In this document: piece after piece, positions 1,675 through 26,662 of the stretch
Position numbering within the stretch: position 1 is the first letter of the stretch
Layout of the letters: the number at the start of each line of letters is the position of its first letter
Virus record (IMG/VR): IMGVR_UViG_3300021400_000095
Source: a virus
Lineage: Duplodnaviria; Caudoviricetes
Strand: one strand, 5' to 3'
Length of the DNA: 64,000 bases
Made by a program: the position numbers and the translations under genes
Notes under the pieces: model-generated
Database searches by the model: none
Told to the model about the DNA's origin: nothing
What the model saw: only the letters and a program-made list of their open reading frames with translations

Positions 1675-1691
1675 TAAAATACCTTATATTT

Positions 1692-1766: not shown

Positions 1767-1768
1767 CA

Positions 1769-1902: not shown

Positions 1903-1912
1903 AATCTTAACA

Positions 1913-2025
1913 AGAAAAGTAACAGCAAAATTTGAAGTTTTTAGATGAGTCATAAGATGATATGTATAGTGAAAACTATATGGGGTCTGAATCCCCAACT
2001 TACCCCAAACTAAAATTCTTTTCTG
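1913..2025 (+). ncRNA. ACAGCAA-module RNA (copy 2)
   Basis: AGAAAAG-TA-ACAGCAA ... CTTTTCTG (compensatory change relative to other copies); inner TATAGT/ACTATA and GGGG-TCTGAAT-CCCC hairpins. Confidence 0.7.
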
Positions 2026-2041
2026 TTTTAAAGTATAAAAT

Positions 2042-2119
2042 GGTGTGTTAGTTCAGCCTGGTTAGAATGCCACACTGTCACTGTGGAGGTCATGGGTTCG
2101 AGTCCCATACATACCGCCA
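2042..2119 (+). tRNA. tRNA-Asp(GTC)
   Basis: GGTGTGT/ACATACC-G-CCA, CCACA-CTGTCAC-TGTGG. Confidence 0.95.
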
Positions 2120-2121
2120 AA

Positions 2122-2214
2122 AGAAAACTTACAGCAATTTATGTTGGATAAAATAAAAAATCTCTAAACTTTTTTATGAAATGGTTCAAATCCATTAAAA
2201 CTAATAGTTTTCTG
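2122..2214 (+). ncRNA. ACAGCAA-module RNA (copy 3) with CTA anticodon-like loop and T arm
   Basis: AGAAAAC-TT-ACAGCAA ... GTTTTCTG; loop CTCTAAA on an A/T stem; AATGG-TTCAAAT-CCATT. Confidence 0.7.
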
Positions 2215-2228
2215 TTTATTTTTAAACT

Positions 2229-2301
2229 GGGGGATTAGCTCAGTTGGCAGAGCACAACATTTGCAATGTTGGGGTCAGGGGTTCAAATCCCCTATCCTCC
2301 A
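2229..2301 (+). tRNA. tRNA-Ala(TGC)
   Basis: GGGGGAT/ATCCTCC-A with G3.U70, CAACA-TTTGCAA-TGTTG. Confidence 0.95.
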
Positions 2302-2335
2302 CTAAATCAATTAATTACAATATTGTAATTATATT

Positions 2336-2410
2336 CATGCCATCGTATAATTGGTTAGTACCCTGCCCTTTCACGGCAGAAATGTTGGGGTTCGAGTCCC
2401 CCTGGCATGA
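2336..2410 (+). tRNA. tRNA-Glu(TTC)
   Basis: CATGCCA/TGGCATG, CTGCC-CTTTCAC-GGCAG, TTCGAGT T-loop. Confidence 0.9.
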
Positions 2411-2425
2411 CAAATTTTTAGTACA

Positions 2426-3364
2426 ATGTCAAAATATGATATTTTATTTAGTGAAAAAGAGAAAGAGAACATAATTAAAGATTATGTTGAAAACTTATTA
2501 TCAATTAAAGAAATTTGTTTTAAATATAGTATAAAAAACAAACAATGGTTATGCAAAAAACTTTTAAAAGGAAAAACAAGAAGTTATAATGAATCTTGTA
2601 AAATTGCACATAAAAAATATCCAGAAAAATTCTTACATACAGAAGAAACAAAAAAATTAATGAGACAAAAAAGGCTTGATTTTATGAAAAATCATCCTGA
2701 AGAAACTGCTTGGAGAAAAAGAAACAAACCTTCATATCCTGAGCAATGTTTTATTGATTTTTTAAATGAATATGGATATTCTGACAAATATTTAATTGAA
2801 AGAGAAAAAAGTATATTTCCATATTTCATTGATTTTGCTTTTAATGATTTAAAGATTGCAGTTGAAATTGATGGTTCACAACATTATCTAGAGGAAGATA
2901 GAATTAAAAGGGATAAGAAGAAAGATGAACTATTAATTTCTTTAGGATGGTCAATATTAAGAATTTCAGCAATTTCTTTAGTCAATAAAGAATTTAAAGA
3001 AATTGATAAAAAGTTATCTGAAATCATAGTTTCTGTTAAAACTGTAGTACAACCATTACAAGTTGGTTTAATAAAGAAAATAAAGGGGAAGAAAAGACTA
3101 TCAAAAAATGGTAAATGGTATGTAAATTACAGAGAAAAATCTGAAAAATATTCAGATAACCAAACAATTAAGCAATATGAAAATTCATTAAGACAGAGAA
3201 AAGTTAAAGACAGACCATCAAAAGAAGAATTATTTGAAATGATGTCAACACAGACATTTAAATCAATTGCTGAAAAATATGGTGTTTCAACAAATGCTAT
3301 TCAAAAATGGTGTAAGGCATATGGGATACCACATAGGAAAAGAGATTACAATAATTTGGGATAG
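2426..3364 (+). CDS. DUF559/Vsr-like endonuclease with C-terminal HTH; putative free-standing homing endonuclease
   Basis: S-x-x-E motif, YFIDFAF..KIAVEIDGSQH..RD...GWSILRI; C-terminal SIAEKYGVSTNAIQKW HTH; inserted between tRNAs. Confidence 0.8.
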   Translation: MSKYDILFSEKEKENIIKDYVENLLSIKEICFKYSIKNKQWLCKKLLKGKTRSYNESCKIAHKKYPEKFLHTEETKKLMRQKRLDFMKNHPEETAWRKRNKPSYPEQCFIDFLNEYGYSDKYLIEREKSIFPYFIDFAFNDLKIAVEIDGSQHYLEEDRIKRDKKKDELLISLGWSILRISAISLVNKEFKEIDKKLSEIIVSVKTVVQPLQVGLIKKIKGKKRLSKNGKWYVNYREKSEKYSDNQTIKQYENSLRQRKVKDRPSKEELFEMMSTQTFKSIAEKYGVSTNAIQKWCKAYGIPHRKRDYNNLG

Positions 3365-3437
3365 TGCTGGAACTGGTATACAGGCATGCCTAAGGAGCAT
3401 GTGGAGATTTCCATGTGGGTTCAAATCCCCTACCCCA
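3358..3437 (+). tRNA. tRNA-Leu(AAG), long variable arm
   Basis: CTG-GAACTGGTATA-CAG D arm, CATGC-CTAAGGA-GCATG, TGGA..TCCA variable arm; T/acceptor pairing slightly imperfect. Confidence 0.8.
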
Positions 3438-3568
3438 TACAAATGAGATACAACATAACAATATAAGTTATTAGAAAAATAATAATATGGGTATATCACC
3501 CATAGTTTAAGTCCCCTCCAAAAAGGCAGAACAATTATTTTAATAATATAATAACAAAATTAATAATT

Positions 3569-3778
3569 ATGGGGTACTTTGTTTTAATTTTTGGTTTCTT
3601 ATTCACATTTATTGCAACAATAATCAAGGTGAATAAGACTTACATTCCAAAGACTGATTGTTCTACAGACATCAAGGATGCTAAGAGCAATTTGATTCAC
3701 ATGAGAACTTTCTTTATACTTGGACCAAGTTTAATTGTAATAAGTATTATACTTATTATTTTAGGTGTAGGATTATAA
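3569..3778 (+). CDS. small two-TM membrane protein
   Basis: 69-aa ORF with two hydrophobic segments. Confidence 0.6.
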   Translation: MGYFVLIFGFLFTFIATIIKVNKTYIPKTDCSTDIKDAKSNLIHMRTFFILGPSLIVISIILIILGVGL

Positions 3779-3826
3779 AGGAAATGTAATATGAATGGGT
3801 ACAAGATGAACTTCTTGTACCATTTT

Positions 3827-3900
3827 ACCCCCTTAGCCCAATTGGAAGAGGCAATAGGTTAAGGACCTATTCAGTGTGAGTTCAAATCTCACAGGGGGTA
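3827..3900 (+). tRNA. tRNA-Leu(AAG), short variable arm
   Basis: ACCCCCT/AGGGGGT-A, GCC-CAATTGGAAGA-GGC, ATAGG-TTAAGGA-CCTAT, GTGAG-TTCAAAT-CTCAC. Confidence 0.88.
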
Positions 3901-3918
3901 CAAATAATATAAATATAT

Positions 3919-4036
3919 TGGGAGGTAGCTCAGTTGGTTAGAGCAGAGTATTTATGTTTTTAGTAACAGAAACTTACAGCAATATTTACAATGCATTTGG
4001 AGCCTCAGGTCATAGGTTCAAGTCCTATCCTCCCAA
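3919..4036 (+). tRNA. tRNA-Pro(TGG)-like gene interrupted by ~44-nt ACAGCAA-module insert (copy 4, ~3949-3992)
   Basis: TGGGAGG/CCTCCCA-A acceptor, GCTC..GAGC D arm, ATAGG-TTCAAGT-CCTAT T arm; insert GTTTTT-AGTAAC-AGAAAC-TTACAGCAA; TTTGG loop (Gln TTG register not excluded). Confidence 0.75.
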
Positions 4037-4041
4037 CAAAT

Positions 4042-4119
4042 GGACATGTAGCTCAGTTGGTTTAGAGCATTTGACTGATATTCAAAAGGTCACAGGTTCA
4101 ACTCCTGTCTTGTCCACCA
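4042..4119 (+). tRNA. tRNA-Ile(GAT)
   Basis: TTTGA-CTGATAT-TCAAA, ACAGG-TTCAACT-CCTGT, encoded ACCA. Confidence 0.93.
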
Positions 4120-4245
4120 AGATAACCTTTCATTGGTCTAGCTAGGTGAAAGGAGAACTAATTTTATGCTGATAGTTTGAAAGCACACAAGTAGAACAGT
4201 TAGCAAAATAAGGTTGTAAAAAGTTGGTGAAAACCCATTATCTTG
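4118..4245 (+). ncRNA. unassigned multibranch structured RNA
   Basis: CAAGATAA/TTATCTTG closing stem; CCTTTCA/TGAAAGG and TGCTGA/TTAGCA inner stems. Confidence 0.45.
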
Positions 4246-4250
4246 ACCAT

Positions 4251-4323
4251 GCAGTAATATATCAATTGGTAGATAGTCTGCTTGCCATGCAGAAGGTTGA
4301 GAGTTCGAGTCTCTTTTACTGCT
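4251..4323 (+). tRNA. tRNA-Gly(GCC)
   Basis: GCAGTAA/TTACTGC-T, TCTGC-TTGCCAT-GCAGA. Confidence 0.94.
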
Positions 4324-4455
4324 CAAAGAGTAACGGACAAGGCTTAGGAGTATGATTAATGTTAAAGGAAGGAGTTTATTAACAAACATTTTTACTTCTT
4401 AATAATCATTAAAACAAGACTGTGGGATGCGAGTGGTTACTTTTTTTATTTAAAT

Positions 4456-4530
4456 GGGGATTATGGTGTAATGGTAGCATGTATGATTGTGGTTCATCAG
4501 GTCACAGTTCGAGCCTGTGTTTTCCCCCCA
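4456..4530 (+). tRNA. tRNA-His(GTG)
   Basis: G-1, ATGA-TTGTGGT-TCAT, CACAG-TTCGAGC-CTGTG, C73-CCA. Confidence 0.9.
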
Positions 4531-4556
4531 TAAAAAATTATTTTTTTTTAGAAAAA

Positions 4557-4590
4557 TTTGTTTATTTAAAATAATATTTATATATTTGTA
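4557..4590 (+). promoter_or_regulatory. Bacteroidota primary-sigma promoter
   Basis: TTTG 4557-4560 and TATATTTG 4581-4588, immediately before module copy 5. Confidence 0.75.
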
Positions 4591-4594
4591 GAGA

Positions 4595-4697
4595 AGAAAA
4601 CAGACAGCAAATTAAGTTTAAGATTGTAGGTTCAATTCCTTCTGTTTTTAAAGAAATTTAAAGGCAAAAATAGGTAATCCAAAAACAAAGTTTTCTG
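4595..4697 (+). ncRNA. ACAGCAA-module RNA (copy 5), permuted T-acceptor-D-like order without anticodon arm
   Basis: AGAAAAC-AG-ACAGCAA ... GTTTTCTG; GTAGG-TTCAATT-CCTTC; TGTTTTTA/TAAAGGCA closed stem. Confidence 0.7.
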
Positions 4698-4709
4698 CTT
4701 GAAATACAA

Positions 4710-4865
4710 GCCGCCTTAGTATAGTGGTATTACAACTGACTTGCTACAGAGTGATTCACTGAGAAGAATTGCAAGGTATTAAAAGTGGTGAGCAGTACAG
4801 ATGATAGTTCAACTCTATCTACCTTGCCTAATCAGTAGATGTTGGTTCGATTCCGACAGGCGGCT
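4710..4865 (+). tRNA. tRNA-Thr(TGT) interrupted in the anticodon by an 85-nt tRNA-like insert (4744-4828)
   Basis: GCCGCCT/AGGCGGC-T acceptor; ACTGA-CTTG|TAA-TCAGT reconstitutes the classical Thr anticodon arm; GTTGG-TTCGATT-CCGAC. Confidence 0.85.
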
Positions 4866-4906
4866 CAAATTTTCTGAACACATAGGAAAATTTTTGTGTA
4901 CACAAT

Positions 4907-5061
4907 GCCTGTATAGACTGAAATGGTGAAAGGGAGTAACAAACTGCTAAACAAATTTTAGTGAATGCATTAAGTTAAACTTTGAGTTAGTAAGTGTGAA
5001 AGGCTTAAGCAGCACCCTCTTTTGATAGAGGGGGATGTGGGTTCAATTCCCACTACAGGTA
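4907..5061 (+). tRNA. atypical tRNA with ~80-nt D-loop insert and 8-nt anticodon loop (TTTTGATA; Gln or Ser reading)
   Basis: GCCTGTA/TACAGGT-A acceptor, CCCTC/GAGGG anticodon stem, GTGGG-TTCAATT-CCCAC. Confidence 0.65.
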
Positions 5062-5068
5062 CAAAAAT

Positions 5069-5142
5069 TGTGGGGTGATAGCAGTTGGTAGCTAGTCAGG
5101 CTCATAACCTGAAGGTCATGGGTTCAAGTCCCATCCCCGCAA
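5069..5142 (+). tRNA. tRNA-fMet(CAT), initiator-type
   Basis: TGTGGGG/CCCCGCA-A, AGCAGTTGGTAGCT D arm, TCAGG-CTCATAA-CCTGA. Confidence 0.9.
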
Positions 5143-5186
5143 CAACAGAACAAATATTTTTTCCTTATCATTTCTTTGATAAGTAT

Positions 5187-5475
5187 AACACAAACTTGTC
5201 CTATAGTCCCTCAAATATAGGACCTTGCCATGTGCAATTAGGTAAAGGCATAAAATAGTGTACATATGTTTATGCATAATAAGAGACCATTCCAAAGTGT
5301 TGGGTTGCTAATTAAACATGTACTCAGCCATTCTTGGCTAGTCAGAATATAACAAATAAATCTGGAGAGAAGCACCTTGCCAACAGTTAAGTAAAACCTT
5401 GTAAAGAAAATTATTTCCAAAGGTCATCCATTTAAAATGGTTAAACAGTCGCAGTGATGTAGTAAAGTTTGTGTT
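5187..5475 (+). ncRNA. unassigned ~290-nt structured RNA
   Basis: 11-bp terminal stem AACACAAACTT/AAGTTTGTGTT plus several inner hairpins. Confidence 0.6.
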
Positions 5476-5486
5476 TTTTTATTATT

Positions 5487-5672
5487 TAGTGCTGTAAAAA
5501 GTTTGGCAGATTAAAGATTAGGTTGCAAATGAAAGTTATCCTCCCTATTGGCTGTGTATTTTTATAATACTGAACTCTAGTTGCATAAGCCTTGTATGAG
5601 CAGCATAACTAAAATTATTTAGTTCCAAACATTCAGGGAGTAAGGCATTAATAAGGGCACTGAACAGCACTA
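5487..5672 (+). ncRNA. unassigned ~185-nt structured RNA
   Basis: TAGTGCTGT/ACAGCACTA terminal stem, CTCCCT/AGGGAG inner stem. Confidence 0.55.
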
Positions 5673-5676
5673 TTAT

Positions 5677-5753
5677 GTACCTGTGGCAGAGTGGTCAAAT
5701 GCAAAGGTCTGCAAAACCTTGATTCATTGGTTCAAATCCAATCAGGTACTCCA
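5677..5753 (+). tRNA. tRNA-Cys(GCA)
   Basis: GTACCTG/CAGGTAC-T-CCA, AAGGT-CTGCAAA-ACCTT. Confidence 0.95.
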
Positions 5754-5812
5754 AAAAAGCATATAACAATTTTTGAATTTTTGTAATTTAGAAGTTGTTA
5801 TTTTTTTTTTAT

Positions 5813-5897
5813 GGAGGGTTGGGTGAGTGGCTTAAACCAGCAGTTTGCTAAACTGCCGACCCACAAGGGTCCACTGGTTCAAATCCAGTACCCTCCG
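5813..5897 (+). tRNA. tRNA-Ser(GCT)
   Basis: GGAGGGT/ACCCTCC-G, GCAGT-TTGCTAA-ACTGC, long variable arm. Confidence 0.95.
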
Positions 5898-5937
5898 CAT
5901 TAACAAAAAGAATTGTATTTACCAAATTTTAATTAGC

Positions 5938-18266: not shown

Positions 18267-19859
18267 ATGAAAGAAATGTTTAAAATATCTGAAAATGCAA
18301 ATCCAAACTACCTTGCATTGATTACTAAAATTGGTGAAACCCATCCAATTGAAGGTGCTGATAGGCTTCTTAGAACCACTGTTAATGGTTTTGACATTGT
18401 TGTTGGTAATAACATGAAAGAAGGGGATATTGTTGTATATGTTCCTGTGGAATCTGCACTTTCTGAAAAGTTCCTTTCTACAAATAACTTGTATGAACTT
18501 GATGAATGGCAAAAAAATGCCAATGCATCTGAAATTGGTGTTCTTTATACCAAACTTAATGAACTTAAGTCTGAAGGTAAAAAGGATGAAGCAGATGCTG
18601 TTTATAAGGAAATTAAATCTAAGGTTGGATATTTTACCAATAAGAATAGGGTTAGAATTATTAACCTTAGAGGTTGCCCTTCTAATGGCTTTGTTGCTGG
18701 TGTTGATTCTCTTGTAAAATATAATTCTGAACTTGCTAATTCTAACTGGGAAGAACTTGTTGGAACTTATTTTAATTATGTAGGTGATGATGAGTTTTGT
18801 AAGAAATACATCCCTACTATCAAAGATAATAATGTTCCTCAAAATAATAGGAAAGGTACTAAAAAAGCACAAAAGAAACTGCAAAGGTTTGATAGACTTG
18901 TCCCTGGTCAGTATGAATTCCATTATGACACAATCAGACTTGATGCAACCAATATGCAAACTTTTATTCAACCAACTGATACTGTAACTATTACAGTAAA
19001 GGTACATGGTGCTCTTGCTGAAATGGCAAATGTTCTTATTAATAAGAAACTTTCTGTTTGGGAGAAAATTAAGAAATTCATTGGTTTTCATGTTGAAACC
19101 ACTGAATATGGAAATGTCTATTCTTCACATAAGGTAATCAAAAATAGATATATTAATAAGGGTGAAATTAATAATTTCTATGGTGCTGACATTTGGGGTT
19201 GTGTAAATAGGGACTTTGGTAAGTACCTTTCTGAAGGCATGACTGTTTATGGTGAGGTTGCTGGTTATGTTGAAGGCTCTGATAAAATGATTCAAAAAAA
19301 TCATGACTATGGTTGTAAGCCTGGTTGTTGGAAATTCATGCCTTATAGAATTACTGAAACTGACAAATATGGTAATTCAAGAGAATGGAACATTTCTGAA
19401 ATTTTTAAGTGGACCATTGATTTAATGGTTGCTCACCCTGAACTTGAAGATAAAATTCTTCCTATTAAGATACTTTATCATGGAAGAATTTGTGACTTGT
19501 ACCCTGATATTGAAATTGATGAAAAATGGTATAGTAATTTCCTTGAAAGACTTCATAATGATAAGAACTTCTATATGGAGTTAAAGGAACCCATGTGCCA
19601 TCTTTATGAGGAAGAAGCAAATGCAGCAAAGAAAGCACTTGATAAGGCAATTGCTGATGGTGAATCAAAGAAAATCATTGCTAAACTTGAAAAAGAGTTT
19701 AACAAATGGGAAGATATGAGAGCACCAAGGGAAGGTGTTGTTATTAGAATTGATAATGATGCCAAGGCAGAAGCTTTTAAAGTTAAGACTAATGCCCACT
19801 ACGGGGTTGAATGTGCACAACATGATGCTGGTGAAGTTGATATTGAGGAAATTTCATAA
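18267..19859 (+). CDS. ATP-dependent RNA ligase (Rnl2/DRB0094-like) with N-terminal OB/tRNA-binding domain
   Basis: HPIEGADRL OB motif; motif I TVKVHG, YGEVAG, REGVVIR, FKVK. Confidence 0.85.
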   Translation: MKEMFKISENANPNYLALITKIGETHPIEGADRLLRTTVNGFDIVVGNNMKEGDIVVYVPVESALSEKFLSTNNLYELDEWQKNANASEIGVLYTKLNELKSEGKKDEADAVYKEIKSKVGYFTNKNRVRIINLRGCPSNGFVAGVDSLVKYNSELANSNWEELVGTYFNYVGDDEFCKKYIPTIKDNNVPQNNRKGTKKAQKKLQRFDRLVPGQYEFHYDTIRLDATNMQTFIQPTDTVTITVKVHGALAEMANVLINKKLSVWEKIKKFIGFHVETTEYGNVYSSHKVIKNRYINKGEINNFYGADIWGCVNRDFGKYLSEGMTVYGEVAGYVEGSDKMIQKNHDYGCKPGCWKFMPYRITETDKYGNSREWNISEIFKWTIDLMVAHPELEDKILPIKILYHGRICDLYPDIEIDEKWYSNFLERLHNDKNFYMELKEPMCHLYEEEANAAKKALDKAIADGESKKIIAKLEKEFNKWEDMRAPREGVVIRIDNDAKAEAFKVKTNAHYGVECAQHDAGEVDIEEIS

Positions 19860-20065
19860 TGAAAAGGGTTGTTAAATATATTCCAGTTGACCCATATTAT
19901 TCTGAACAAACTCAGACCTATATTGGGTCAACTGCTTCTGAAGTTGATAATATTCAATATGAAACTGAAGAATTTATGGCAAGAAATCATACAAATTTGG
20001 GTATGATTTATAAAACTGAAACAATTTTTGACAATACAAATGAGTTTGGCATGAATTTTGATTAA
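19859..20065 (+). CDS. hypothetical protein
   Basis: TAATG-coupled to the ligase. Confidence 0.65.
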   Translation: MKRVVKYIPVDPYYSEQTQTYIGSTASEVDNIQYETEEFMARNHTNLGMIYKTETIFDNTNEFGMNFD

Positions 20066-20119
20066 GTTAAAATAGAAAATTAACAAATACATTATTAACA
20101 ACAAAAAAAAATTAGAACA

Positions 20120-20974
20120 ATGGCAGATACAATGCTTTCTTTTAGTAGGAATCTTAGTTCCACTTTTCTTACTGAGGATGAACTTAAGAAGATTTGTCCT
20201 ATGGCTTTTAAGACTGAGCCTACCAACCCTGATGTTTCTGACAAGTACACTATGGCAACCACTATGGATGTTGTAAATGACATGGCACAGATTGGTTGGT
20301 TTCCAACTCAGGCAAAGCAGTGCAGGGGAAAGAAGAATTCAAAGGGGATTAGGAGTTATCATATGATTTCTTTTCAAAATCCTGATATTAAGATTTTGAA
20401 GGATGGTGAAATTGAAGCCTATCCAACCATTATTTTGCAGAACTCTCATGATGGTTTCAGTTCTTTTAAGTTTATGTGTGGCCTCTATCGGCTAGTATGT
20501 AGCAACGGATTAATTTTGGCTGATGCTGAATATGCAAGTGTTTCCATTAGACATATCAATTACAATTTTGAAGAACTCAGGCATGTTATTAATGACATTG
20601 TTGAAAAACTTCCTGAAAAGATTGCTGTAATTAATAAGATGAAGTCAACTGAACTTACTGAGGAACAGAAGACTGAGTTTGCAACCAATGTTATTAAGGT
20701 TAGAAAAGATATCCCCATTGAAAAGGAGATTGAGGTTAGTAATGACACTATTACTGACATTTTAACACCTATTAGGAAAGAAGATGAAGGTAACAATTTG
20801 TGGGCAATCTACAATGTTCTTCAGGAGAAGATTATCAATGGATATTTCTCTTATGCCAAGGATGAAAGAACCAAAGCAAGGAAGATGAGGAAGATTACCA
20901 GCCCTATTAAGGACATTAATATTAACTGTGAATTGTTTAAACTGGCCAGTAACTACATGAATGTTGCTGCATAA
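20120..20974 (+). CDS. DUF932/DUF945 family protein
   Basis: ILQNSHDGFSSF...GLYRLVCSNGLI, NLWAIYNVLQE. Confidence 0.88.
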   Translation: MADTMLSFSRNLSSTFLTEDELKKICPMAFKTEPTNPDVSDKYTMATTMDVVNDMAQIGWFPTQAKQCRGKKNSKGIRSYHMISFQNPDIKILKDGEIEAYPTIILQNSHDGFSSFKFMCGLYRLVCSNGLILADAEYASVSIRHINYNFEELRHVINDIVEKLPEKIAVINKMKSTELTEEQKTEFATNVIKVRKDIPIEKEIEVSNDTITDILTPIRKEDEGNNLWAIYNVLQEKIINGYFSYAKDERTKARKMRKITSPIKDININCELFKLASNYMNVAA

Positions 20975-20986
20975 ATATAAATTAAT

Positions 20987-21271
20987 ATGAGTGATTTGCT
21001 AAATAAGAAATTTTTTAAGCACAAGAAGTTGAATACATTTTATCTCAAAAGGTTCAAGACTGAATCAAAGAGTAATTTTCAGGTTTGGAAGAAAAATGGT
21101 AAATATTATGTTGCAATAGGTGTAATATCTGTTGGTGACAGTCTTTATGCTGAAGAAACCATTGATTATGGGACTAACATTATTGAAGCAAGGAAGTATT
21201 GTGATGAACTTAGGCAAAATTATATCTTAAATGAAGTAAAAAGATATAAGAATTTAAAGAAAGTATATTAA
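20987..21271 (+). CDS. hypothetical protein
   Basis: ORF in operon context. Confidence 0.65.
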   Translation: MSDLLNKKFFKHKKLNTFYLKRFKTESKSNFQVWKKNGKYYVAIGVISVGDSLYAEETIDYGTNIIEARKYCDELRQNYILNEVKRYKNLKKVY

Positions 21272-22533
21272 TGATAGAAAAGTTATTTAAAATAAACATA
21301 TGTGAAAAACATCCTGAATATTGTTCCATTGAATATTTATGGGACAATATTTGGTCTATACCTGAGTTTGCAATTTTAAAGACATGTGAACAAAATCCAA
21401 AATGGCATGGTGAAGGAAATGTTATGAACCACACTGCACTTGTCATAAAGCATGCACTTCAAATTGTGAACAATGATATGACCTATGATGGTATTCATAT
21501 TAATGGATATTTGGATGCTGAAAGCAATCATAAAAGAAATGAATTTGAAACTGTTTGGCTTGACAAGAAGCATTTCAATGATACATTAATTTTGCTTACA
21601 GCAGCATTGTTTCATGATATTGGCAAAGGTGTAACAACCAGGCTTGGAAAAGATGGAAATTATCATTCATATAATCATGAATTTGAGGGTGAAAAACTTA
21701 CCAGATTACTTTTATGGGATGAAAACATTCATTTTAGGGAAGCAGTTTGTTCATTGGTTAAATACCATATGATGCCATTAAGTCTTTTTAATAGTAAAGA
21801 TTATTTGGAAAAAATTGTACAAATTTCACATAATGTTCCATCTTGGGAATTATTATTGAAATTAAAGTCATGTGATTTGGAAGGTTCCTTACAGGAGGAT
21901 AATCTTTTAAAGGAAAGGGACACCTTATATTTATCTGAATTGGTAGATATCACAACAAATATTAATTTCAAAGGTTTTCCATCAAAGAGACATTATGGTA
22001 TCAAGTATTATGAAAGAAACACCAAAAAACCATTGGATATTTATATTTTGATTGGGCTTTCAGGTGCTGGTAAAAATACTTTTATCAACAATATATTTGA
22101 AGATGATGTTGTTGCCATTAATGGCAAAGTTATAAAGAAACTTGACAAAGATAATACTACCATTATTTCAAGGGATGATATTAGGATTAAACTTGGATAT
22201 TGTTCTGAGAATGAAAAAATTGTTGGCACTACTGAACAGGAAAATAAGGTATCAGAAGTTTTCAATGAAGAAGTTCTATCTGCTGCAAAAGAAGGAAAAA
22301 CAATTATCATTAATAATATTAATTTAAAGAAGGAATATAGGTCACAGATAATAAACATGTTTTCAAACTATTGTTTGACAATAAATTATGTTTATATACA
22401 GGCAGACAAACTACAAAAGAATTTTGATAGAAGAGAAGGTCAAATGAACTCAGATTCAATTATTAGACAAATAAAGAATTTTGATTGGCCAGATTTCTAT
22501 GAATATGATAAATTTTACATTCTCACAAATTAA
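21271..22533 (+). CDS. HD-domain phosphohydrolase fused to P-loop (AAA_33/PNK-like) kinase
   Basis: QNPKWHGEGNVMNHT, FHDIGK, HM; GLSGAGKNT Walker A, SRDDIR. Confidence 0.88.
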   Translation: MIEKLFKINICEKHPEYCSIEYLWDNIWSIPEFAILKTCEQNPKWHGEGNVMNHTALVIKHALQIVNNDMTYDGIHINGYLDAESNHKRNEFETVWLDKKHFNDTLILLTAALFHDIGKGVTTRLGKDGNYHSYNHEFEGEKLTRLLLWDENIHFREAVCSLVKYHMMPLSLFNSKDYLEKIVQISHNVPSWELLLKLKSCDLEGSLQEDNLLKERDTLYLSELVDITTNINFKGFPSKRHYGIKYYERNTKKPLDIYILIGLSGAGKNTFINNIFEDDVVAINGKVIKKLDKDNTTIISRDDIRIKLGYCSENEKIVGTTEQENKVSEVFNEEVLSAAKEGKTIIINNINLKKEYRSQIINMFSNYCLTINYVYIQADKLQKNFDRREGQMNSDSIIRQIKNFDWPDFYEYDKFYILTN

Positions 22534-22599
22534 TTTGTGAGAATTTTTTTTTTATTTTTGGCATATTTTTTGTATATTTGTAAAAAGGTACAATATAAT

Positions 22600-23580
22600 A
22601 TGGATGAAATTAGTTTAATACAAAAAATAGGTGGAAATACAACACCAAATGACATACTTGAAATTGAAAATAAAGTCATTAAATTAGTTGAGGAAAGGGG
22701 TGTTGCACCTTTTCCTTACAAAAACATTATTAGTTCTATTGTAGAATATATTAAAAAAGAAACAAATTTAAATAAACCAACAGCAACAGTTGGGGAAAAG
22801 AAGCTTTACATACCATATGAGATTACCAGTAAAATTGATTTTATTGATAATTTAAATATTGAGGTTAATGTGGAATATACTACTGATGAGAAAAAACTTA
22901 GCAATTCAGGTGGTGGTATTACACATTTTTCCACAAGACCTAGAATGGTTAATGGAAAACTTGACAATATTACAATTGTAATACATTGTTTATCAATGTA
23001 TGGGTATTTGTTAGAAAGAACATTGTATAATTCATTATATCATGAAATACATCATGCATATGAAGCATATTTAGATTTAAAGAAAAATGGATATTATAAA
23101 AGATGGCTCAACCAAGTCAAGAAATCTAATATTAATGTTACTGATATTTTTAATAATAATGAAGACAATAATTTGTTTAATATAATATTATATAGGTTAT
23201 TTTCTGAAACTGAATTTAATGCACTTATTTCAGGCTTATATGGTGATTTAAAAGGATTTCATTCAATTAGGCAAAACTTTCAAAAAGATATTAAAAATAC
23301 ACAAGCATATTATATTTACTATTTAATCAGTCAAAATTATAAAGCACTTTATGCAAAAATAAATGACAGTAATATTAGTAAAGTTAAAAATTTATTGGTT
23401 GACCATGGGATTATATTAAATCCATATAATAATTCAACAGCAAGTTATGTTAAAGAACTTTCAAGAAAAACAAATTATTTGTTAAAGGATTTAATTAAAG
23501 GTATTGGAAGGGCTGCTTCATTATATTATGATAATCAAGAGGAAAAATTTCCAGATAAAAATATTAAAATAGAAAATTAA
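22600..23580 (+). CDS. HExxH putative metallopeptidase
   Basis: LYHEIHHAYE and downstream ETEFNA. Confidence 0.6.
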   Translation: MDEISLIQKIGGNTTPNDILEIENKVIKLVEERGVAPFPYKNIISSIVEYIKKETNLNKPTATVGEKKLYIPYEITSKIDFIDNLNIEVNVEYTTDEKKLSNSGGGITHFSTRPRMVNGKLDNITIVIHCLSMYGYLLERTLYNSLYHEIHHAYEAYLDLKKNGYYKRWLNQVKKSNINVTDIFNNNEDNNLFNIILYRLFSETEFNALISGLYGDLKGFHSIRQNFQKDIKNTQAYYIYYLISQNYKALYAKINDSNISKVKNLLVDHGIILNPYNNSTASYVKELSRKTNYLLKDLIKGIGRAASLYYDNQEEKFPDKNIKIEN

Positions 23581-23582
23581 AT

Positions 23583-24014
23583 ATGGATAAAAATTGGCAA
23601 TATTATGGTGTTTTCTTTTCTGATAAAGTAAAGGAACTTTTATATAGGAAAGCAAGTCAATATCTTGACCTTCCTTTTATGTTTGAAAACTATTATTTTG
23701 ATATTGATACATGGAAGAAATATTGTGACCATGTAACAATTGTATATAATGATGGAAACCCTGAAAAACAAAAAATTGCAGAAGGACTTGACCTATTTGT
23801 AGGTAATGAGGCTTCTATGATGGTAACACATTTGGGTGTATCTGATAGAGCAGTTGCTTTTAAAGTTGATTATAAAACAACAAATAAGATTTCACATGTA
23901 ACTGTTGCAGTTGCTCCTGGTGCAAAACCTGTTGAAAGCAATTATATTACTGATTGGGAAGAAATTGATGTTTTTTATATTAGTGGCAAAATTAATAAAG
24001 TTTTAAAGAAATGA
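23583..24014 (+). CDS. 2H phosphoesterase (cyclic phosphodiesterase)
   Basis: Two HVT motifs; HVTVAVAPGAKPVESN resembles the fungal tRNA-ligase CPDase domain. Confidence 0.8.
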   Translation: MDKNWQYYGVFFSDKVKELLYRKASQYLDLPFMFENYYFDIDTWKKYCDHVTIVYNDGNPEKQKIAEGLDLFVGNEASMMVTHLGVSDRAVAFKVDYKTTNKISHVTVAVAPGAKPVESNYITDWEEIDVFYISGKINKVLKK

Positions 24015-25273
24015 CAATAAATATCTATAAAGAAATCCTTAAAGAACTAAAGAACATAATTACAGGTACTGAATGGGAAAATCATATTTTTTCTGTTGGT
24101 GGTTGTAATAGGGATTATATTATGGGAAATGAAATTAAAGACATTGATTTTGTTTGTGATTTGCCAAATGGTGGTATTAATTTTGCAAAATGGCTCAAAG
24201 AAAATGAATATGTCAATAATAGCATTGTTGTTTATGAAAATTTTGGAACTGCAATGTTTCATTTAAATAAATTTCCTGATATTGAACTTGAAGTTGTTCA
24301 TACAAGAAAAGAATGTTATCATGATGCAAAGACAAGAAATCCTGAAACTTCTTTTGGCACACTTCTTGAAGATTGGGAAAGAAGGGACTTTACAATTAAT
24401 GCAATATATTACAACATTAGTAAAGGTGAATTTTTAGATTTTAAAGATAGAGGTAAAACTGACATTGAAAAGAAAATAATTAGAACCTGTAGTTTAAACC
24501 CTGATATAGTTTTTACTGAAGACCCTTTAAGAATTCTAAGAATGGTTAGATTTGCTACAAAACTGGGGTTTGAAATTGATAATAATACTTTTAGTAGTGC
24601 TAAAAAGAATACAAACAGGTTATCAATTATTAGTAAAGAAAGGATTCAGGATGAACTTAATAAAATGCTTACTTCTGGTAATGCAGATTATGCAATGAAA
24701 CTTATATATGATTTAGGTGCTGATGAATATATTTTTAATTCAAAAATTGATTGCCCTGAGCAAATAATTAAATCTCTGAAAAACTATAAGTTACTGCCAA
24801 ACTGTGATGTAAAAAATCTTGAAGCCAATTTGACTATTATATATAGTTTCTATCCTGATGTAGAAGATAAAATGAAATATCTCAAATATTCAAATGAAAT
24901 AATTTATTTGGTTATGTTTTATTTTGATTTATTTGATGATATTAATTTATCAAGAATGACACCATCAGGAATTAGAAAAATACAATATAACAGCAAAACA
25001 TTTAATAATTTAATAAATGCCTGTAATATTGCTACTGCTGTCCTTAACACACCAAATGTTAATAAAGTATTGGAAAGCACTAATAAAATGATGAAAGCTG
25101 GCATAGCAATGTTTAATTATAAACTTCCTGTTGATGGAAATGATGTTATGAGAGTGCTTCATATTAAACCATCACCAGTTGTAAAAACAAAATTGGATTT
25201 CCTGTTAAATCAGGCTTTTATTAATCCATTCCTTAGTAAATCTGATTGCGAATTATTGTTAGAACTAAATTAA
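24011..25273 (+). CDS. cca: CCA tRNA nucleotidyltransferase (class II)
   Basis: VGGCNRD, DIDF, FGT, RRDFTINA, EDPLRILR, SKERI motifs. Confidence 0.9.
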   Translation: MTINIYKEILKELKNIITGTEWENHIFSVGGCNRDYIMGNEIKDIDFVCDLPNGGINFAKWLKENEYVNNSIVVYENFGTAMFHLNKFPDIELEVVHTRKECYHDAKTRNPETSFGTLLEDWERRDFTINAIYYNISKGEFLDFKDRGKTDIEKKIIRTCSLNPDIVFTEDPLRILRMVRFATKLGFEIDNNTFSSAKKNTNRLSIISKERIQDELNKMLTSGNADYAMKLIYDLGADEYIFNSKIDCPEQIIKSLKNYKLLPNCDVKNLEANLTIIYSFYPDVEDKMKYLKYSNEIIYLVMFYFDLFDDINLSRMTPSGIRKIQYNSKTFNNLINACNIATAVLNTPNVNKVLESTNKMMKAGIAMFNYKLPVDGNDVMRVLHIKPSPVVKTKLDFLLNQAFINPFLSKSDCELLLELN

Positions 25274-25280
25274 TAATATT

Positions 25281-25439
25281 ATGACTAGTAATACTAATGA
25301 AACTTTATTAAAAAATACCTATCAAGTTGGAAACTCTGTTTTTAACTCCTATGAAGAAGCATTATGCTATTTAATGAAAGAAAAAAATTATACAACTAAT
25401 GCAACAGAAATAATAATAAATACTGAATACTATTATTGA
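25281..25439 (+). CDS. small hypothetical protein (52 aa)
   Basis: Translated by hand: MTSNTNETLLKNTYQVG...; fills gap. Confidence 0.5.
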   Translation: MTSNTNETLLKNTYQVGNSVFNSYEEALCYLMKEKNYTTNATEIIINTEYYY

Positions 25440-25441
25440 TT

Positions 25442-26662
25442 ATGACTAAATTAACAATTGAATATCTTAGAGAACATAACATGATTGCCTATGAATATAT
25501 TAGAGGGTCACATGCTTATGGCACTAACATTGAAACCTCTGATAAAGATATTGGAGGTGTTTACATTTGTCCAAAGGAAACTCTTGTTGGACTTAGATGC
25601 AATTATGTGGAACAGGTTGCTGATGAAAAAAATGATACTGTTTTCTATGAACTTGGTAGATGGGTTGAACTCCTTATGAAATCAAATCCAACTGCACTTG
25701 AAAGTTTGTTTATACCTGAAGATTGCATCATTGGTAAAATTCATCCAGCAGTACAACATATTCTTGACCATAGAGACCTTTTTGTTACTAAAGAATGCCT
25801 AAATCCTCTATTGGGTTATTCATATTCACAAATTGAAAAAGCAAAGGGTCTTAATAAGAAAATCAATATTCCTGAAGATTTCCAAAGAAAAGATATTCTT
25901 GATTTTTGCTATACTTTTAAGAATCAAGGAAGTCAACCAATTAAAGATTTTCTTAAAGAAAATTATCTTGACCAAAAATATTGTGGTCTTGTAAACATTC
26001 CTAACATGAAAGATGTTTATGGTGTTTACTATGATTGGGCTTCATATTTCAAATTTGAGAACATTGATTGGTATGATGCAAGTTTTCAAAGTGGTGGAAT
26101 TAAATACCCATTTTCAAAGTTCATCAAAGATTTTGAGCATGCATATATTAGAGATAGAATTAATGATAAGGTGTTTTTCCATTATTCTGGAATTGTTCAT
26201 CCTGATGAATTATCAAAGTCAAATGTTGTTAGATTGTCATCCATTCCAAAGGGTGAAAAGCCTATTTGTTTTATGACTTATAATAAAGATGGTTATGAAA
26301 GTCATTGTAAAAAATATAAAGAATGGGTAGATTGGAAAAAACATAGGAATCCTGTAAGGTATGAAAATAATAAAGGACATAACTATGATGCCAAAAATCT
26401 ATGCCATACAATTAGATTAATGACAATGGGTGTTGAACTTGCTGAAGGAAAAGGTTTCAATGTTAGAAGAAGTGGTGAAGATGTAAAGCATCTTCTTGCA
26501 ATTAGAAATCATGAAATGTCATATGATGAAATCATGGAAGAAGCAACCAATTTGAAAAAAATTTTTGATGAGAAAGTAAAAACAACAACTCTTCCTGATA
26601 AAATTGATATTTCTTTAGTTAATAAACTACTTATTGAAAGTAGAAGTATTGCTTATGAATGA
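25442..26662 (+). CDS. DNA-pol-beta superfamily nucleotidyltransferase (RlaP/YcgL-like)
   Basis: GSHAYGTNIETSDKDIGGVY, NPTALESLF, YDAKNLCHTIRL, LLAIR. Confidence 0.85.
   Translation: MTKLTIEYLREHNMIAYEYIRGSHAYGTNIETSDKDIGGVYICPKETLVGLRCNYVEQVADEKNDTVFYELGRWVELLMKSNPTALESLFIPEDCIIGKIHPAVQHILDHRDLFVTKECLNPLLGYSYSQIEKAKGLNKKINIPEDFQRKDILDFCYTFKNQGSQPIKDFLKENYLDQKYCGLVNIPNMKDVYGVYYDWASYFKFENIDWYDASFQSGGIKYPFSKFIKDFEHAYIRDRINDKVFFHYSGIVHPDELSKSNVVRLSSIPKGEKPICFMTYNKDGYESHCKKYKEWVDWKKHRNPVRYENNKGHNYDAKNLCHTIRLMTMGVELAEGKGFNVRRSGEDVKHLLAIRNHEMSYDEIMEEATNLKKIFDEKVKTTTLPDKIDISLVNKLLIESRSIAYE

What the first reader, a model, noticed from the sequence alone, without database searches (positions are those of the whole stretch)
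18267..26662. Complete RNA end-healing/sealing and 3'-end rebuilding cluster as candidate partner of the interrupted tRNAs
Seen in one co-oriented block: OB-fused ATP-dependent RNA ligase, HD-phosphatase/kinase fusion, 2H cyclic phosphodiesterase, CCA-adding enzyme and RlaP-like nucleotidyltransferase. Established: kinase + CPDase/phosphatase + ligase is the chemistry of T4 Pnk/Rnl1 tRNA repair and of fungal Trl1 tRNA splicing. Seen: only Asp, Ile, His and Cys tRNAs encode CCA (most end N-CAA) and the tmRNA lacks it. Inference: besides countering anticodon nucleases, this kit could mature the intron-containing and permuted tRNAs, giving a split-Trl1-like phage splicing pathway. The endonuclease is not identified in this window.
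Basis: partly seen in the sequence, partly recalled or inferred. Interest (0 to 1): 0.75.

Follow-up and report, generated by a model that had tools for sequence, protein, structure and literature searches.

The report
Jumbo-phage RNA repair gene block
A giant rumen phage carries, in one 8.4-kb block, a full set of enzymes for mending cut RNA and rebuilding tRNA ends; this is a known kind of phage counter-defence kit, and its proposed second job of splicing the phage's oddly interrupted tRNAs is neither shown nor excluded.

Summary
Window 18267-26662 (+ strand) encodes five RNA-end enzymes:
- an Rnl5-type RNA ligase with an N-terminal OB domain;
- an HD-phosphoesterase/polynucleotide-kinase fusion (HD-Pnk);
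- a 143-aa 2H phosphoesterase;
- a class II CCA-adding enzyme;
- an RlaP nucleotidyltransferase.

Catalytic motifs are intact, and two relatives keep the gene order. Five other ORFs of no recognised RNA function sit between them.

Most phage tRNAs and the tmRNA do lack an encoded CCA.

Best reading: a heal-and-seal tRNA repair kit that also rebuilds 3' ends. Such kits are already described for jumbo phages (PMC7824862) and resemble the Runella HD-Pnk/ligase cluster.

The splicing idea is only partly supported.
- One insert, in tRNA-Thr(UGU), belongs to a real intron family shared with Lak megaphages.
- Every genome I found with that family also has this ligase.
- Three complete relatives have the kit but no such intron, and the ligase family is common in phages not reported to carry tRNA introns.
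- No Tpt1, splicing endonuclease or RtcB was found in relatives.
- The ligase is not Trl1-type.

An overlapping window of this scan noted the same stretch (e1-5674089).

The parts
18267..19859 (+). Rnl5-type ATP-dependent RNA ligase, 530 aa: N-terminal OB domain, then nucleotidyltransferase domain, with helical inserts
   Evidence: - Families: PF21189 and phrog_968.
- Motifs K245-x-H-G, E330, E489-G490 and K505-x-K507 are invariant in 64 homologues.
- A profile search of solved structures hits only NgrRnl 5COT, E 3e-4.
- AF2 model pLDDT 92.7; best Foldseek match NgrRnl, E 1e-12, target-normalised TM 0.70.
- The ATG at 18267 is supported by alignment with relatives.
19859..20065 (+). o68, a small ORF of unknown function that stays next to the ligase gene
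   Evidence: Adjacent to the ligase in L001 (upstream of it) and in G002 (downstream of it), at 66-69% identity. No family match.
20120..20974 (+). DUF932 protein of unknown function, conserved in the block
   Evidence: PF06067, E 1.4e-28. Lies between the ligase and HD-Pnk in L001 and L005. Nearest other family is DUF3871, mostly Bacteroidota. No solved relative.
20987..21271 (+). o94, small ORF of unknown function
   Evidence: No family match. A homologue lies near DUF932 in G002.
21271..22533 (+). HD-Pnk: N-terminal HD phosphoesterase fused to a C-terminal P-loop 5'-OH polynucleotide kinase
   Evidence: - Families: PF01966, PF13671 and phrog_505.
- Invariant in 54 homologues: H46, H115-D116, H132, H136, H166, D202, the P-loop G262..G267-K268-x-T270, R301-D302..R305, and R387-R388.
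- AF2 model pLDDT 91.1.
- Kinase-domain fold neighbours: T4 Pnk (target TM 0.73), C. thermocellum Pnkp, a fungal kinase (9drz), mammalian PNKP and PSTK.
- HD-domain neighbours: the Aquifex tRNA-processing enzyme entries 3wfo/3wfp.
22519..22544 (+). Terminator-like hairpin (11-bp stem plus a T run) straddling the HD-Pnk stop codon
   Evidence: It splits the block into two probable transcription units. That split is an inference.
22600..23580 (+). o347, a phage-only protein with an HEIHH (HExxH-like) motif; probably an unrelated insert
   Evidence: No Pfam, PHROG or NCBIfam match. Not in the same place in relatives: absent from the L001 block, 3 kb past RlaP in L005, and 56 kb from HD-Pnk in G002. 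Nearest protein-atlas clusters are phage hypotheticals. The listed GTG start at 22537 lies inside the hairpin, and relatives align from about residue 34, so the ATG at 22600 is the likelier start.
23583..24014 (+). Stand-alone 2H cyclic phosphodiesterase, 143 aa
   Evidence: PF08302, E 3.4e-7. Two H-V-T motifs. Homologous to the C-terminal half of Pnk-2H fusion proteins in G012, G015 and G020. Absent from G002, G003 and G010.
24011..25273 (+). Class II tRNA nucleotidyltransferase (CCA-adding type)
   Evidence: PF01743, E 1.9e-22, and PF12627. NCBIfam PRK13299 'CCA tRNA nucleotidyltransferase', E 1.2e-41, below its equivalog cut-off. The GG..RD, DxD, RRDFTINA and EDPLR motifs can be read in the translation.
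25281..25439 (+). o52, small ORF of unknown function between the CCA enzyme and RlaP genes
   Evidence: no significant family match.
25436..26662 (+). RlaP-family (PF10127) Pol-beta-type nucleotidyltransferase
   Evidence: PF10127, E 1.2e-17; phrog_388, E 4.9e-42. 58-74% identical in relatives. 41-42% identical in all 15 Lak records. The start may be the ATG at 25442.
15..5898 (+). tRNA/tmRNA array, the likely clients of the CCA enzyme. It includes the intron-bearing tRNA-Thr(UGU) at 4710-4865 and the handle-bearing tRNA-like RNA at 3919-4036.

Best explanation
The block is a phage RNA (chiefly tRNA) repair and 3'-end rebuilding kit of the heal-and-seal type.

Proposed order of events after a host ribotoxin or anticodon nuclease cuts a tRNA, leaving 2',3'-cyclic phosphate and 5'-OH ends:
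1. The 2H enzyme and/or the HD domain of HD-Pnk open and remove the 3'-terminal phosphate.
2. The kinase domain of HD-Pnk phosphorylates the 5'-OH.
3. RlaP can add back one or two nucleotides lost at the break.
4. The Rnl5-type ligase seals the 3'-OH/5'-phosphate ends.

The CCA enzyme restores damaged CCA ends. It also adds to the host's supply of CCA-adding activity for the phage's own tRNAs and tmRNA, most of which are encoded without CCA.

Shown here: enzyme identities, intact catalytic motifs, clustering, conservation, and CCA-less tRNA genes.
Inferred: the substrates, the order of steps, and the counter-defence purpose.
For: - Domain and motif evidence exists for all five enzymes.
- The ligase model matches the nick-sealing NgrRnl over the whole chain.
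- The kinase domain matches T4 Pnk, C. thermocellum Pnkp and a fungal kinase. The HD domain matches an Aquifex tRNA-processing enzyme.
- Gene order is kept in L001 and L005.
- A core of ligase, HD-Pnk and RlaP is present in the five complete relatives G002, G003, G004, G010 and G011, whether or not they have interrupted tRNAs.
- The three complete relatives without this ligase (G012, G015, G020) instead carry Pnk-2H fusions plus Rnl1-type and Rnl2-type ligases. End-healing and sealing is therefore a constant need in this lineage.
- Published parallels: jumbo-phage RNA repair inventories list ligases, kinases, 2H, HD-like phosphatases, RlaP, CCA enzymes and Ro/TROVE proteins (PMC7824862). Purified RlaP adds 1-2 nucleotides to damaged RNA (bioRxiv 10.64898/2025.12.29.696909). 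Runella has an HD-Pnk plus ligase cluster (PMC6097658).
- The discriminator-CAA tRNA ends make CCA addition obligatory.
Against: - No enzyme activity or substrate has been tested.
- The solved relative NgrRnl is titled a nick-sealing RNA ligase. From my own knowledge it seals nicks in duplex RNA, so efficient sealing of an open anticodon loop is not assured.
- The Runella ligase partner of HD-Pnk sealed none of the 3'-OH/5'-phosphate substrates tried (PMC6097658), so the true substrate of such pairs is unknown.
- No host nuclease is identified.
- 2H and the CCA enzyme are missing from the complete relative G002, so the five-gene set is not an obligate unit.
- The phage CCA enzyme is not needed for CCA-less tRNAs: G002 has 13 of 16 tRNAs ending in CAA and no CCA enzyme.
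Confidence: 0.72

Rival explanations
1. One reading: the kit, or at least its ligase, joins the exons of the phage's small non-group-I tRNA introns.

This intron family sits after anticodon position 35 (36 in the Lak-A1 Thr gene). It begins N-TAC-R-G plus a hairpin, and ends with a tRNA-like acceptor stem and T arm.

Two chemistries are possible:
- If cutting leaves cyclic-phosphate and 5'-OH ends, HD-Pnk and 2H would heal them first.
- If RNase P/Z-type enzymes cut, the ligase alone would be enough.
For: - The 85-nt insert in tRNA-Thr(UGU) at 4710-4865 is real. G002 has the uninterrupted orthologue.
- The same intron design occurs in G004 (at least 5 copies), G003 (at least 1), Lak-A1 (Thr and Asn) and two further IMG/VR contigs.
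- The insert is too short for a group I intron (my judgement), and no Rfam ribozyme family matches the region.
- All four genomes with the intron have the Rnl5-type ligase, a polynucleotide kinase, the CCA enzyme and RlaP.
- No RtcB or EndA was found in G004 or Lak-A1.
- The 3' splice site falls just after the discriminator position of the tRNA-like element. That is where RNase Z would cut, leaving a 5'-phosphate ready for this ligase (reading; inference).
- I found no paper that explains how these introns are removed.
Against: - G002, G010 and G011 have ligase, HD-Pnk and RlaP but no such intron.
- With 3 intron-bearing genomes among 9, of which 6 carry the ligase, the overlap has a chance probability of about 0.24 (my arithmetic). 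The intron carriers are also close kin.
- The healing enzymes do not track the intron. Lak has no HD-Pnk and G003 has no 2H.
- No Tpt1 was found.
- The ligase family is widespread in phages not reported to carry tRNA introns.
- The control genome B. thetaiotaomicron has RtcB, so a Bacteroidota host ligase could do the joining.
- Splicing of these RNAs has never been shown.
Confidence: 0.17
2. The kit is the enzymatic arm of a Ro60-like/Y-RNA-like particle. The phage's DUF2828-vWA protein and its ACAGCAA-handle RNAs, which include the 'permuted' and 'interrupted' tRNA look-alikes, would recruit or present damaged RNAs to the healing and sealing enzymes. The bacterial rsr-Y RNA-rtcB loci are thought to work this way.
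For: - In G003, HD-Pnk (127398-128561) is followed 222 bases later, on the same strand, by a DUF2828 + DUF7788/vWA protein (128783-130414).
- DUF2828 homologues are present in G002, G003, G004, G010, G012, G015, G020 and Lak-A1.
- The element at 3919-4036 and similar RNAs in relatives carry CAGCAA inside a tRNA frame.
- The literature places Ro/TROVE proteins with a tRNA-like partner RNA among jumbo-phage RNA repair parts (PMC7824862).
- Earlier notes of this scan (e1-5674077, e1-5674078, e1-5674099) read these RNAs as Y-RNA-like.
Against: - The adjacency was seen in one genome only. In the window's phage the DUF2828 gene lies outside this window (scan notes).
- G011 has the whole kit and no DUF2828 match. 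G012, G015 and G020 have DUF2828 but not this ligase or HD-Pnk. The two therefore do not co-vary.
- The DUF2828 protein has no sequence match to a solved Ro60. Its Ro60-like fold was not tested here.
Confidence: 0.2
3. The ligase and HD-Pnk mainly mend nucleic-acid ends other than tRNA breaks. Examples would be nicks in RNA:DNA hybrids, or DNA ends made during replication or by restriction. On this reading they sit beside the tRNA enzymes only through shared regulation.
For: - Runella HD-Pnk is described as a DNA/RNA end-healing enzyme (title cited in PMC6097658).
- A calcineurin-like, SbcD/PdeM-like phosphoesterase gene lies next to RlaP on the other strand (26845-27750).
Against: - The three partner genes are RNA-specific. 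RlaP acts on RNA, the CCA enzyme acts on tRNA, and the 2H enzyme matches a tRNA-ligase CPD domain.
- The ligase's closest structure is an RNA ligase.
Confidence: 0.06

Closest known systems
Jumbo-phage RNA repair gene sets (Iyer et al. 2021, PMC7824862, section 3.4.9; drawing on Burroughs & Aravind 2016, which I could not read)
   Same: The same parts list and the same proposed purpose: ATP-dependent RNA ligase, polynucleotide kinase, phosphoesterases including 2H and (rarely) HD, RlaP, CCA-adding enzyme, alongside many phage tRNAs and sometimes a Ro/TROVE protein.
   Different: Here all five enzymes lie in one co-oriented 8.4-kb block. The ligase is Rnl5-type, whereas the passages I read discuss Rnl1, Rnl2 and RtcB. 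The phosphatase is an HD domain fused to Pnk, not the usual HAD type. HD-Pnk has only one near-full-length match among 50,697 deposited phage records, yet 400 clusters in metagenomes.
Runella slithyformis HD-Pnk / ligase / Tpt1 cluster (Munir & Shuman; summarised in PMC6097658)
   Same: The same two-domain HD-Pnk layout (N-terminal HD 2',3'-phosphoesterase, C-terminal 5'-OH kinase), encoded close to an ATP-dependent ligase gene.
   Different: In Runella the ligase ORF overlaps the HD-Pnk ORF; here three ORFs separate them. Runella adds Tpt1 and a methyltransferase-HIT protein; here there are 2H, the CCA enzyme and RlaP, and no Tpt1 in relatives. Whether the Runella ligase is Rnl5-type was not tested.
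Naegleria gruberi RNA ligase NgrRnl (PDB 5COT) and Deinococcus DraRnl: the Rnl5 family
   Same: N-terminal OB domain followed by the nucleotidyltransferase domain; lysine-containing motif I K-x-H-G; best structural match; weak hit to TIGR02306, the DraRnl model.
   Different: 530 aa against 340: about 190 extra residues in helical inserts (about 78-117 and 448-484). Sequence identity only 13-16%. Substrate untested.
Phage T4 Pnkp + Rnl1 tRNA repair
   Same: The same logic: kinase plus 3'-phosphatase heal, then a ligase seals tRNA cut by a host anticodon nuclease.
   Different: Different families. T4 uses a HAD phosphatase and Rnl1. No Rnl1-type gene (PF09511) was found in G004 or Lak-A1. The more distant relatives G012, G015 and G020 do carry Rnl1-type ligases.
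Fungal/plant Trl1 tRNA splicing ligase
   Same: Kinase plus 2H CPDase plus ATP-dependent ligase chemistry. The 2H protein matches Pfam's Trl1 CPD domain family. Relatives G012, G015 and G020 even fuse kinase and CPDase in the Trl1 order.
   Different: The ligase domain is not Trl1-type. No Tpt1 to remove a junction 2'-phosphate. An extra HD phosphatase is present that would remove the 2'-phosphate which, to my knowledge, Trl1 needs. No splicing endonuclease.

Membership tests
Rnl5 RNA ligases (NgrRnl/DraRnl) | OB domain at the N terminus, nucleotidyltransferase domain after it, no C-terminal OB domain | tested here: met
   PF21189 at residues 16-68. A profile of the family hits only NgrRnl, at its N-terminal OB domain. 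The AF2 model aligns to whole NgrRnl chains with target-normalised TM 0.66-0.70.
Rnl5 RNA ligases (NgrRnl/DraRnl) | Covalent nucleotidyltransferase motifs, including the motif I lysine | tested here: met
   K245, G248, E330, G333, E489, G490, K505 and K507 are invariant in 64 homologues.
Rnl5 RNA ligases (NgrRnl/DraRnl) | Seals 3'-OH/5'-phosphate nicks in duplex RNA | not testable with these tools
   Needs an enzyme assay.
HD-Pnk end-healing enzymes (Runella type) | N-terminal HD metal-dependent phosphoesterase domain with intact metal ligands | tested here: met
   PF01966. H46, H115-D116, H132, H136, H166 and D202 are invariant in 54 sequences. Fold neighbours are the Aquifex tRNA-processing enzyme entries 3wfo/3wfp.
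HD-Pnk end-healing enzymes (Runella type) | C-terminal P-loop 5'-OH polynucleotide kinase domain | tested here: met
   PF13671 and phrog_505. The P-loop G-x-x-G-x-G-K-x-T and an R-D-D-x-R motif are conserved; from memory this resembles the T4 Pnk Asp/Arg pair. Fold neighbours: T4 Pnk, C. thermocellum Pnkp, mammalian PNKP and a fungal kinase.
HD-Pnk end-healing enzymes (Runella type) | Ligase ORF immediately upstream of, and overlapping, HD-Pnk | tested here: not met
   The ligase gene is upstream on the same strand, but 1.4 kb and three ORFs away. This is a feature of gene context, not of the protein.
2H phosphoesterases | Two H-x-T/S motifs | tested here: met
   H-V-T occurs twice in the translation. 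The motifs align with those of the Pnk-2H fusions. PF08302, E 3.4e-7. The fold was not modelled.
Class II CCA-adding enzymes | PolyA_pol head domain with the catalytic carboxylates and the nucleotide-selecting E-D-x-x-R motif | tested here: met
   PF01743 and PF12627; motifs read. The score against NCBIfam's CCA equivalog model is below its cut-off (143 against 290 bits), so CCA-adding, CC-adding and A-adding specificity cannot be told apart.
RlaP (PF10127) | Match to the family model above its cut-off, with the Pol-beta G-S and D-x-D motifs | tested here: met
   64.9 bits against a cut-off of 23. G-S and D-K-D can be read in the N-terminal 40 residues.
Trl1-type tRNA splicing pathway | Trl1-type ligase domain | tested here: not met
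   Trl1 ligase structures match only at E 0.03-0.3, against 1e-12 for NgrRnl.
Trl1-type tRNA splicing pathway | Tpt1 2'-phosphotransferase to clean the splice junction | tested here: not met
   PF01885 was not found in G001-G004 or Lak-A1. The window's own genome outside these 64 kb could not be searched.
Trl1-type tRNA splicing pathway | Dedicated splicing endonuclease | tested here: not met
   PF01974 was not found in G001-G004 or Lak-A1. None was recognised among the window ORFs that I scanned.

The most novel reading that the evidence does not exclude
The Rnl5-type ligase of this block is the sealing enzyme of a protein-dependent tRNA splicing pathway in phages of Bacteroidota.

The small introns mark their own cut sites with a conserved 5' hairpin module and a tRNA-like acceptor stem plus T arm. 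The 3' cut falls where RNase Z cuts a tRNA. The phage ligase then joins the two exon halves, with HD-Pnk and 2H healing the ends first if needed. To my knowledge this would be the first tRNA splicing in bacteria or their viruses that does not depend on a self-splicing intron.
Probability: 0.17. Interest if true: 0.8.

Novelty: new member of a known kind. Interest (0 to 1): 0.4.

Why it matters
As a repair kit, the block adds a compact and complete example of how giant gut phages protect translation from host RNA-cutting defences. It uses an Rnl5-type ligase and an HD-Pnk, both rare in deposited phage genomes. It also offers five enzymes for biochemical study.

The comparison suggests two alternative set-ups in this lineage:
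- Rnl5-type ligase + HD-Pnk + RlaP, with 22-33 tRNAs;
- Rnl1/Rnl2-type ligases + Pnk-2H fusion, with 47-66 tRNAs.

The larger prize is indirect. The small tRNA introns first seen in Lak megaphages still have no known removal mechanism. This ligase is the most concrete candidate for their joining step, and that can be tested with a few purified proteins and synthetic tRNA halves.

Tried and rejected
- **Close deposited relatives.** A megablast of the block against 50,697 phage records found nothing. A blastn of the interrupted tRNA-Thr also found nothing.
- **The window's own genome.** No whole genome is held for it, so absences could only be tested in relatives.
- **Single-sequence searches of solved structures.** These gave nothing useful for the ligase, RlaP, 2H, DUF932 or the DUF2828 protein. 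Profiles and predicted structures were needed.
- **o347 as the missing endonuclease.** Rejected. It is a phage-only protein with an HExxH-like motif, its position is not conserved, and it has no nuclease signal.
- **DUF932 as an RNA enzyme.** No evidence either way.
- **Does the phage CCA enzyme co-vary with CCA-less tRNAs?** No. G002 has CAA ends and no CCA enzyme.
- **Does DUF2828 co-vary with the ligase and HD-Pnk?** No.
- **My quick scan for handle RNAs.** Too noisy to use.
- **Wide pattern scan for intron-bearing tRNA-Asn.** Of 118 stretches only two were real. One lies on an 18%-complete fragment with no ligase match, and the other record is not held. Neither is informative.
- **Shared promoter motif.** The ACTATTTAT motif seen before neighbouring genes does not precede the block.
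- **Papers.** Burroughs & Aravind 2016 and Munir & Shuman 2017 are not held.

Full report
**1. What is in the sequence**

The window has about 30% G+C. No whole genome is held for it. Notes of this scan describe it as part of a roughly 353-kb rumen jumbo phage. Positions 18267-26662 carry ten ORFs, all on the + strand. Five encode RNA-end enzymes.

- **Ligase (18267-19859).**
  - It matches Pfam's PHA02142 OB-fold domain at its N terminus and PHROG 968, 'RNA ligase'.
  - The family is large: 1,619 representatives at 50% clustering.
  - In 64 homologues the ligase motifs are invariant: K245-x-H-G, E330, E489-G490 and K505-x-K507.
  - A profile search of solved structures finds only the Naegleria gruberi ligase NgrRnl.
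  - An AlphaFold model (pLDDT 92.7) aligns best with NgrRnl (E 1e-12, target-normalised TM 0.70). T4 Rnl2, T4 Rnl1 and Trl1 ligase domains score far worse.
  - Several weaker matches for the N-terminal domain are tRNA-binding OB proteins.
  - It is therefore an Rnl5-type ligase, enlarged by about 190 residues of helical inserts.
- **HD-Pnk (21271-22533).**
  - It joins an HD domain to a P-loop kinase.
  - The HD metal ligands, the P-loop, an R-D-D-x-R motif and two further arginines are invariant in 54 homologues.
  - In its model (pLDDT 91.1) the kinase half resembles T4 Pnk, C. thermocellum Pnkp, a fungal kinase and mammalian PNKP. The HD half resembles an Aquifex tRNA-processing enzyme.
- **2H protein (23583-24014).** It has two H-V-T motifs and matches the CPD domain family of fungal tRNA ligase.
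- **CCA enzyme (24011-25273) and RlaP (25436-26662).** Both are clear family members.

**2. What else is in the block**

o68, DUF932, o94, o347 and o52 have no recognised RNA function.
- o347 is not in the same place in relatives and is probably an unrelated insert.
- o68 and DUF932 travel with the ligase in close relatives, for reasons unknown.
- A strong terminator-like hairpin follows HD-Pnk, so the block probably forms two transcription units.

**3. The tRNA ends**

Of the tRNAs in 1-5900, only Asp, Ile, His and Cys encode CCA. Ten end discriminator-CAA. The tmRNA ends A-CTT. The same CAA habit holds in relatives G002, G003 and G004. G002 has no CCA enzyme gene, so the host enzyme must be sufficient and the phage copy is an addition, not a necessity.

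**4. Relatives and the phylogenetic profile**

HD-Pnk led to seven related IMG/VR loci. L001 and L005 keep the order Rnl-DUF932-HDPnk-2H-CCA-RlaP.

To sample the lineage without bias towards the block, I used a conserved 297-aa protein (window 49757-50650, minus strand) as a marker. I then fetched eight genomes rated 93-100% complete.

| Genome | Rnl5 ligase | HD-Pnk | RlaP | CCA enzyme | 2H | Other ligases | tRNA genes | TACRG introns |
|---|---|---|---|---|---|---|---|---|
| window (64 kb only) | + | + | + | + | + | none seen in the window | 17 in array | 1 |
| G004 | + | + | + | + | + | 2 small PF09414 | 33 | ≥5 |
| G003 | + | + | + | + | − | not searched | 22 | ≥1 |
| G002 | + | + | + | − | − | not searched | 22 | 0 |
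| G010 | + | + (kinase motifs lost) | + | + | − | not searched | 31 | 0 |
| G011 | + | + | + | + | + | not searched | 23 | 0 |
| G012 | − | − | + | + | fused to Pnk | Rnl1 + Rnl2 type | 64 | 0 |
| G015 | − | − | fragments | + | fused to Pnk | Rnl1 (weak) + Rnl2 type | 47 | 0 |
| G020 | − | − | − | + | fused to Pnk | Rnl1 + Rnl2 type | 66 | 0 |

Sources.

- Tpt1 and EndA were not found in G001-G004 or Lak-A1.
- RtcB was not found in G004, G012, G015, G020 or Lak-A1.
- End-healing plus sealing is thus universal in this lineage, but it is built from interchangeable parts.

**5. The interrupted tRNAs**

The 4710-4865 gene is tRNA-Thr(UGU) with an 85-nt insert after anticodon position 35. G002 carries the uninterrupted orthologue. 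The insert has three parts:
- it begins C-TAC-A-G followed by a short hairpin;
- it then forms an 8-bp acceptor-like stem with a T arm;
- it ends one base (a discriminator) after that stem.

The same design, with compensatory changes in the hairpin stem (CAG:CTG, CGG:CCG, CAGG:CCTG), occurs in these places:
- G004: Gly, Asn, Arg and Glu;
- G003: Glu;
- Lak-A1: Asn and Thr, the 'enigmatic' introns of Devoto et al. (PMC6784885);
- two further IMG/VR contigs.

No Rfam ribozyme or group I model matches.

The 3919-4036 element carries CAGCAA inside a tRNA frame, like similar RNAs in G002, G003, G004 and G020. Earlier notes of this scan read these as Y-RNA-like handles for the phage's DUF2828 protein.

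**6. Does the kit go with the introns?**

*For the link*
- All 15 Lak genomes have the Rnl5-type ligase, RlaP and 2H.
- Lak-A1 also has a CCA enzyme, a P-loop kinase and DUF2828, scattered around the genome.

*Against the link*
- Lak has no HD-Pnk.
- Three complete genomes have the kit without the introns.
- The intron carriers in this lineage are close kin, and the overlap could arise by chance (about 0.24 by my arithmetic).
- The healing enzymes vary where the intron design does not.
- The ligase family is mostly found in mycobacteriophages.

The link is therefore possible but unproven. It is at most a secondary use of a general repair kit. If the 3' cut is made RNase Z-style, the ends would already suit the ligase and no healing would be needed. 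That would fit the missing HD-Pnk in Lak, but it is an inference.

**7. The Ro60-like connection**

In G003 the gene after HD-Pnk encodes a DUF2828 + vWA protein. That layout recalls Ro60, and the literature links Ro/TROVE proteins to RNA repair. However, DUF2828 and the ligase/HD-Pnk pair do not co-vary across genomes, and the Ro60-like fold was not tested here.

**8. Verdict**

The block is a new member of a known kind, a jumbo-phage RNA repair and tRNA-end kit, with an uncommon Rnl5 + HD-Pnk make-up. The 'split Trl1' label fails its membership tests. The splicing role stays a live and testable minority hypothesis.

Noticed in passing
window 15-5898; G002, G003 and G004 tRNA arrays: Most tRNA genes of this phage lineage end discriminator-C-A-A, not CCA (8 of 15 in the window, 13 of 16 in G002, 10 of 18 in G003, 12 of 23 in G004). 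Position 74 is almost always C. This points to a lineage-wide 3'-processing rule, and it does not depend on a phage CCA enzyme.
   Followed up: partly
window 4710-4865; G004 252663-252816, about 256041, 260019-260195, 260304-260482; G003 85921-86079; L241 (Lak-A1) c16332-16518 and c23984-24148; L258; L312: One intron family is shared by distant phage lineages. It sits after anticodon position 35 (36 in Lak Thr). It has a 5' N-TAC-R-G hairpin with covarying stem, then a tRNA-like acceptor stem plus T arm. The 3' splice site is one base past that stem, at an RNase Z-like position. L258 holds a minimal 65-nt form.
   Followed up: partly
G012 239.9-240.8 kb; G015 31.3-32.2 kb; G020 161.6-162.4 kb: Fusion proteins of 315-328 aa: P-loop polynucleotide kinase followed by 2H cyclic phosphodiesterase. 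This is the domain order of the healing half of fungal Trl1. The 2H half is homologous to the window's stand-alone 2H protein.
   Followed up: partly
G002-G004, G010, G011 against G012, G015, G020: Two set-ups appear in one phage lineage. Genomes with Rnl5-type ligase + HD-Pnk carry 22-33 tRNA genes. Genomes with Rnl1/Rnl2-type ligases + Pnk-2H fusion carry 47-66. Only eight genomes were compared and there was no phylogenetic correction.
   Followed up: no
G003 127398-130414 (L053): HD-Pnk is followed on the same strand, 222 bases later, by a DUF2828 + DUF7788/vWA protein, the candidate Ro60-like protein of this phage group.
   Followed up: partly
Lak-B records, e.g. MK250025.1 540901-543111: The RlaP match in all nine Lak-B genomes comes in two pieces spread over 2.2 kb, against one piece of 1.15 kb in Lak-A and Lak-C. 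The gene seems to be interrupted by about 1 kb (an intron, an intein or an insertion).
   Followed up: no
window 2426-3364 (+): A 312-aa ORF with a DUF559 / REase_MTES_1575 endonuclease-type domain and a weak HTH match lies inside the tRNA array, between tRNA-Glu and a tRNA-Leu-like gene. It looks like a mobile endonuclease.
   Followed up: no
window 7510-8664, 11827-12576, 12908-13360, 26845-27750: Neighbouring genes include an F420-0:gamma-glutamyl ligase-like protein with a large insert, a YqeY (GatB-like) protein, and two calcineurin-like phosphoesterases. The one next to RlaP is weakly SbcD/PdeM-like.
   Followed up: no
G003 145408-147156; G014 123927-125531; G010 286774-287529: Variants of the kit enzymes. 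The G003 and G014 ligases carry an extra coiled-coil-like insert of about 70 aa in the OB region. The G010 HD-Pnk keeps its HD motifs but has lost the kinase P-loop.
   Followed up: no
G012 286732-286851; G015 c360749-360864: tRNA-like genes that contain a second internal T-arm-like hairpin (about 44 extra bases). They are of a different design from the TACRG introns.
   Followed up: no
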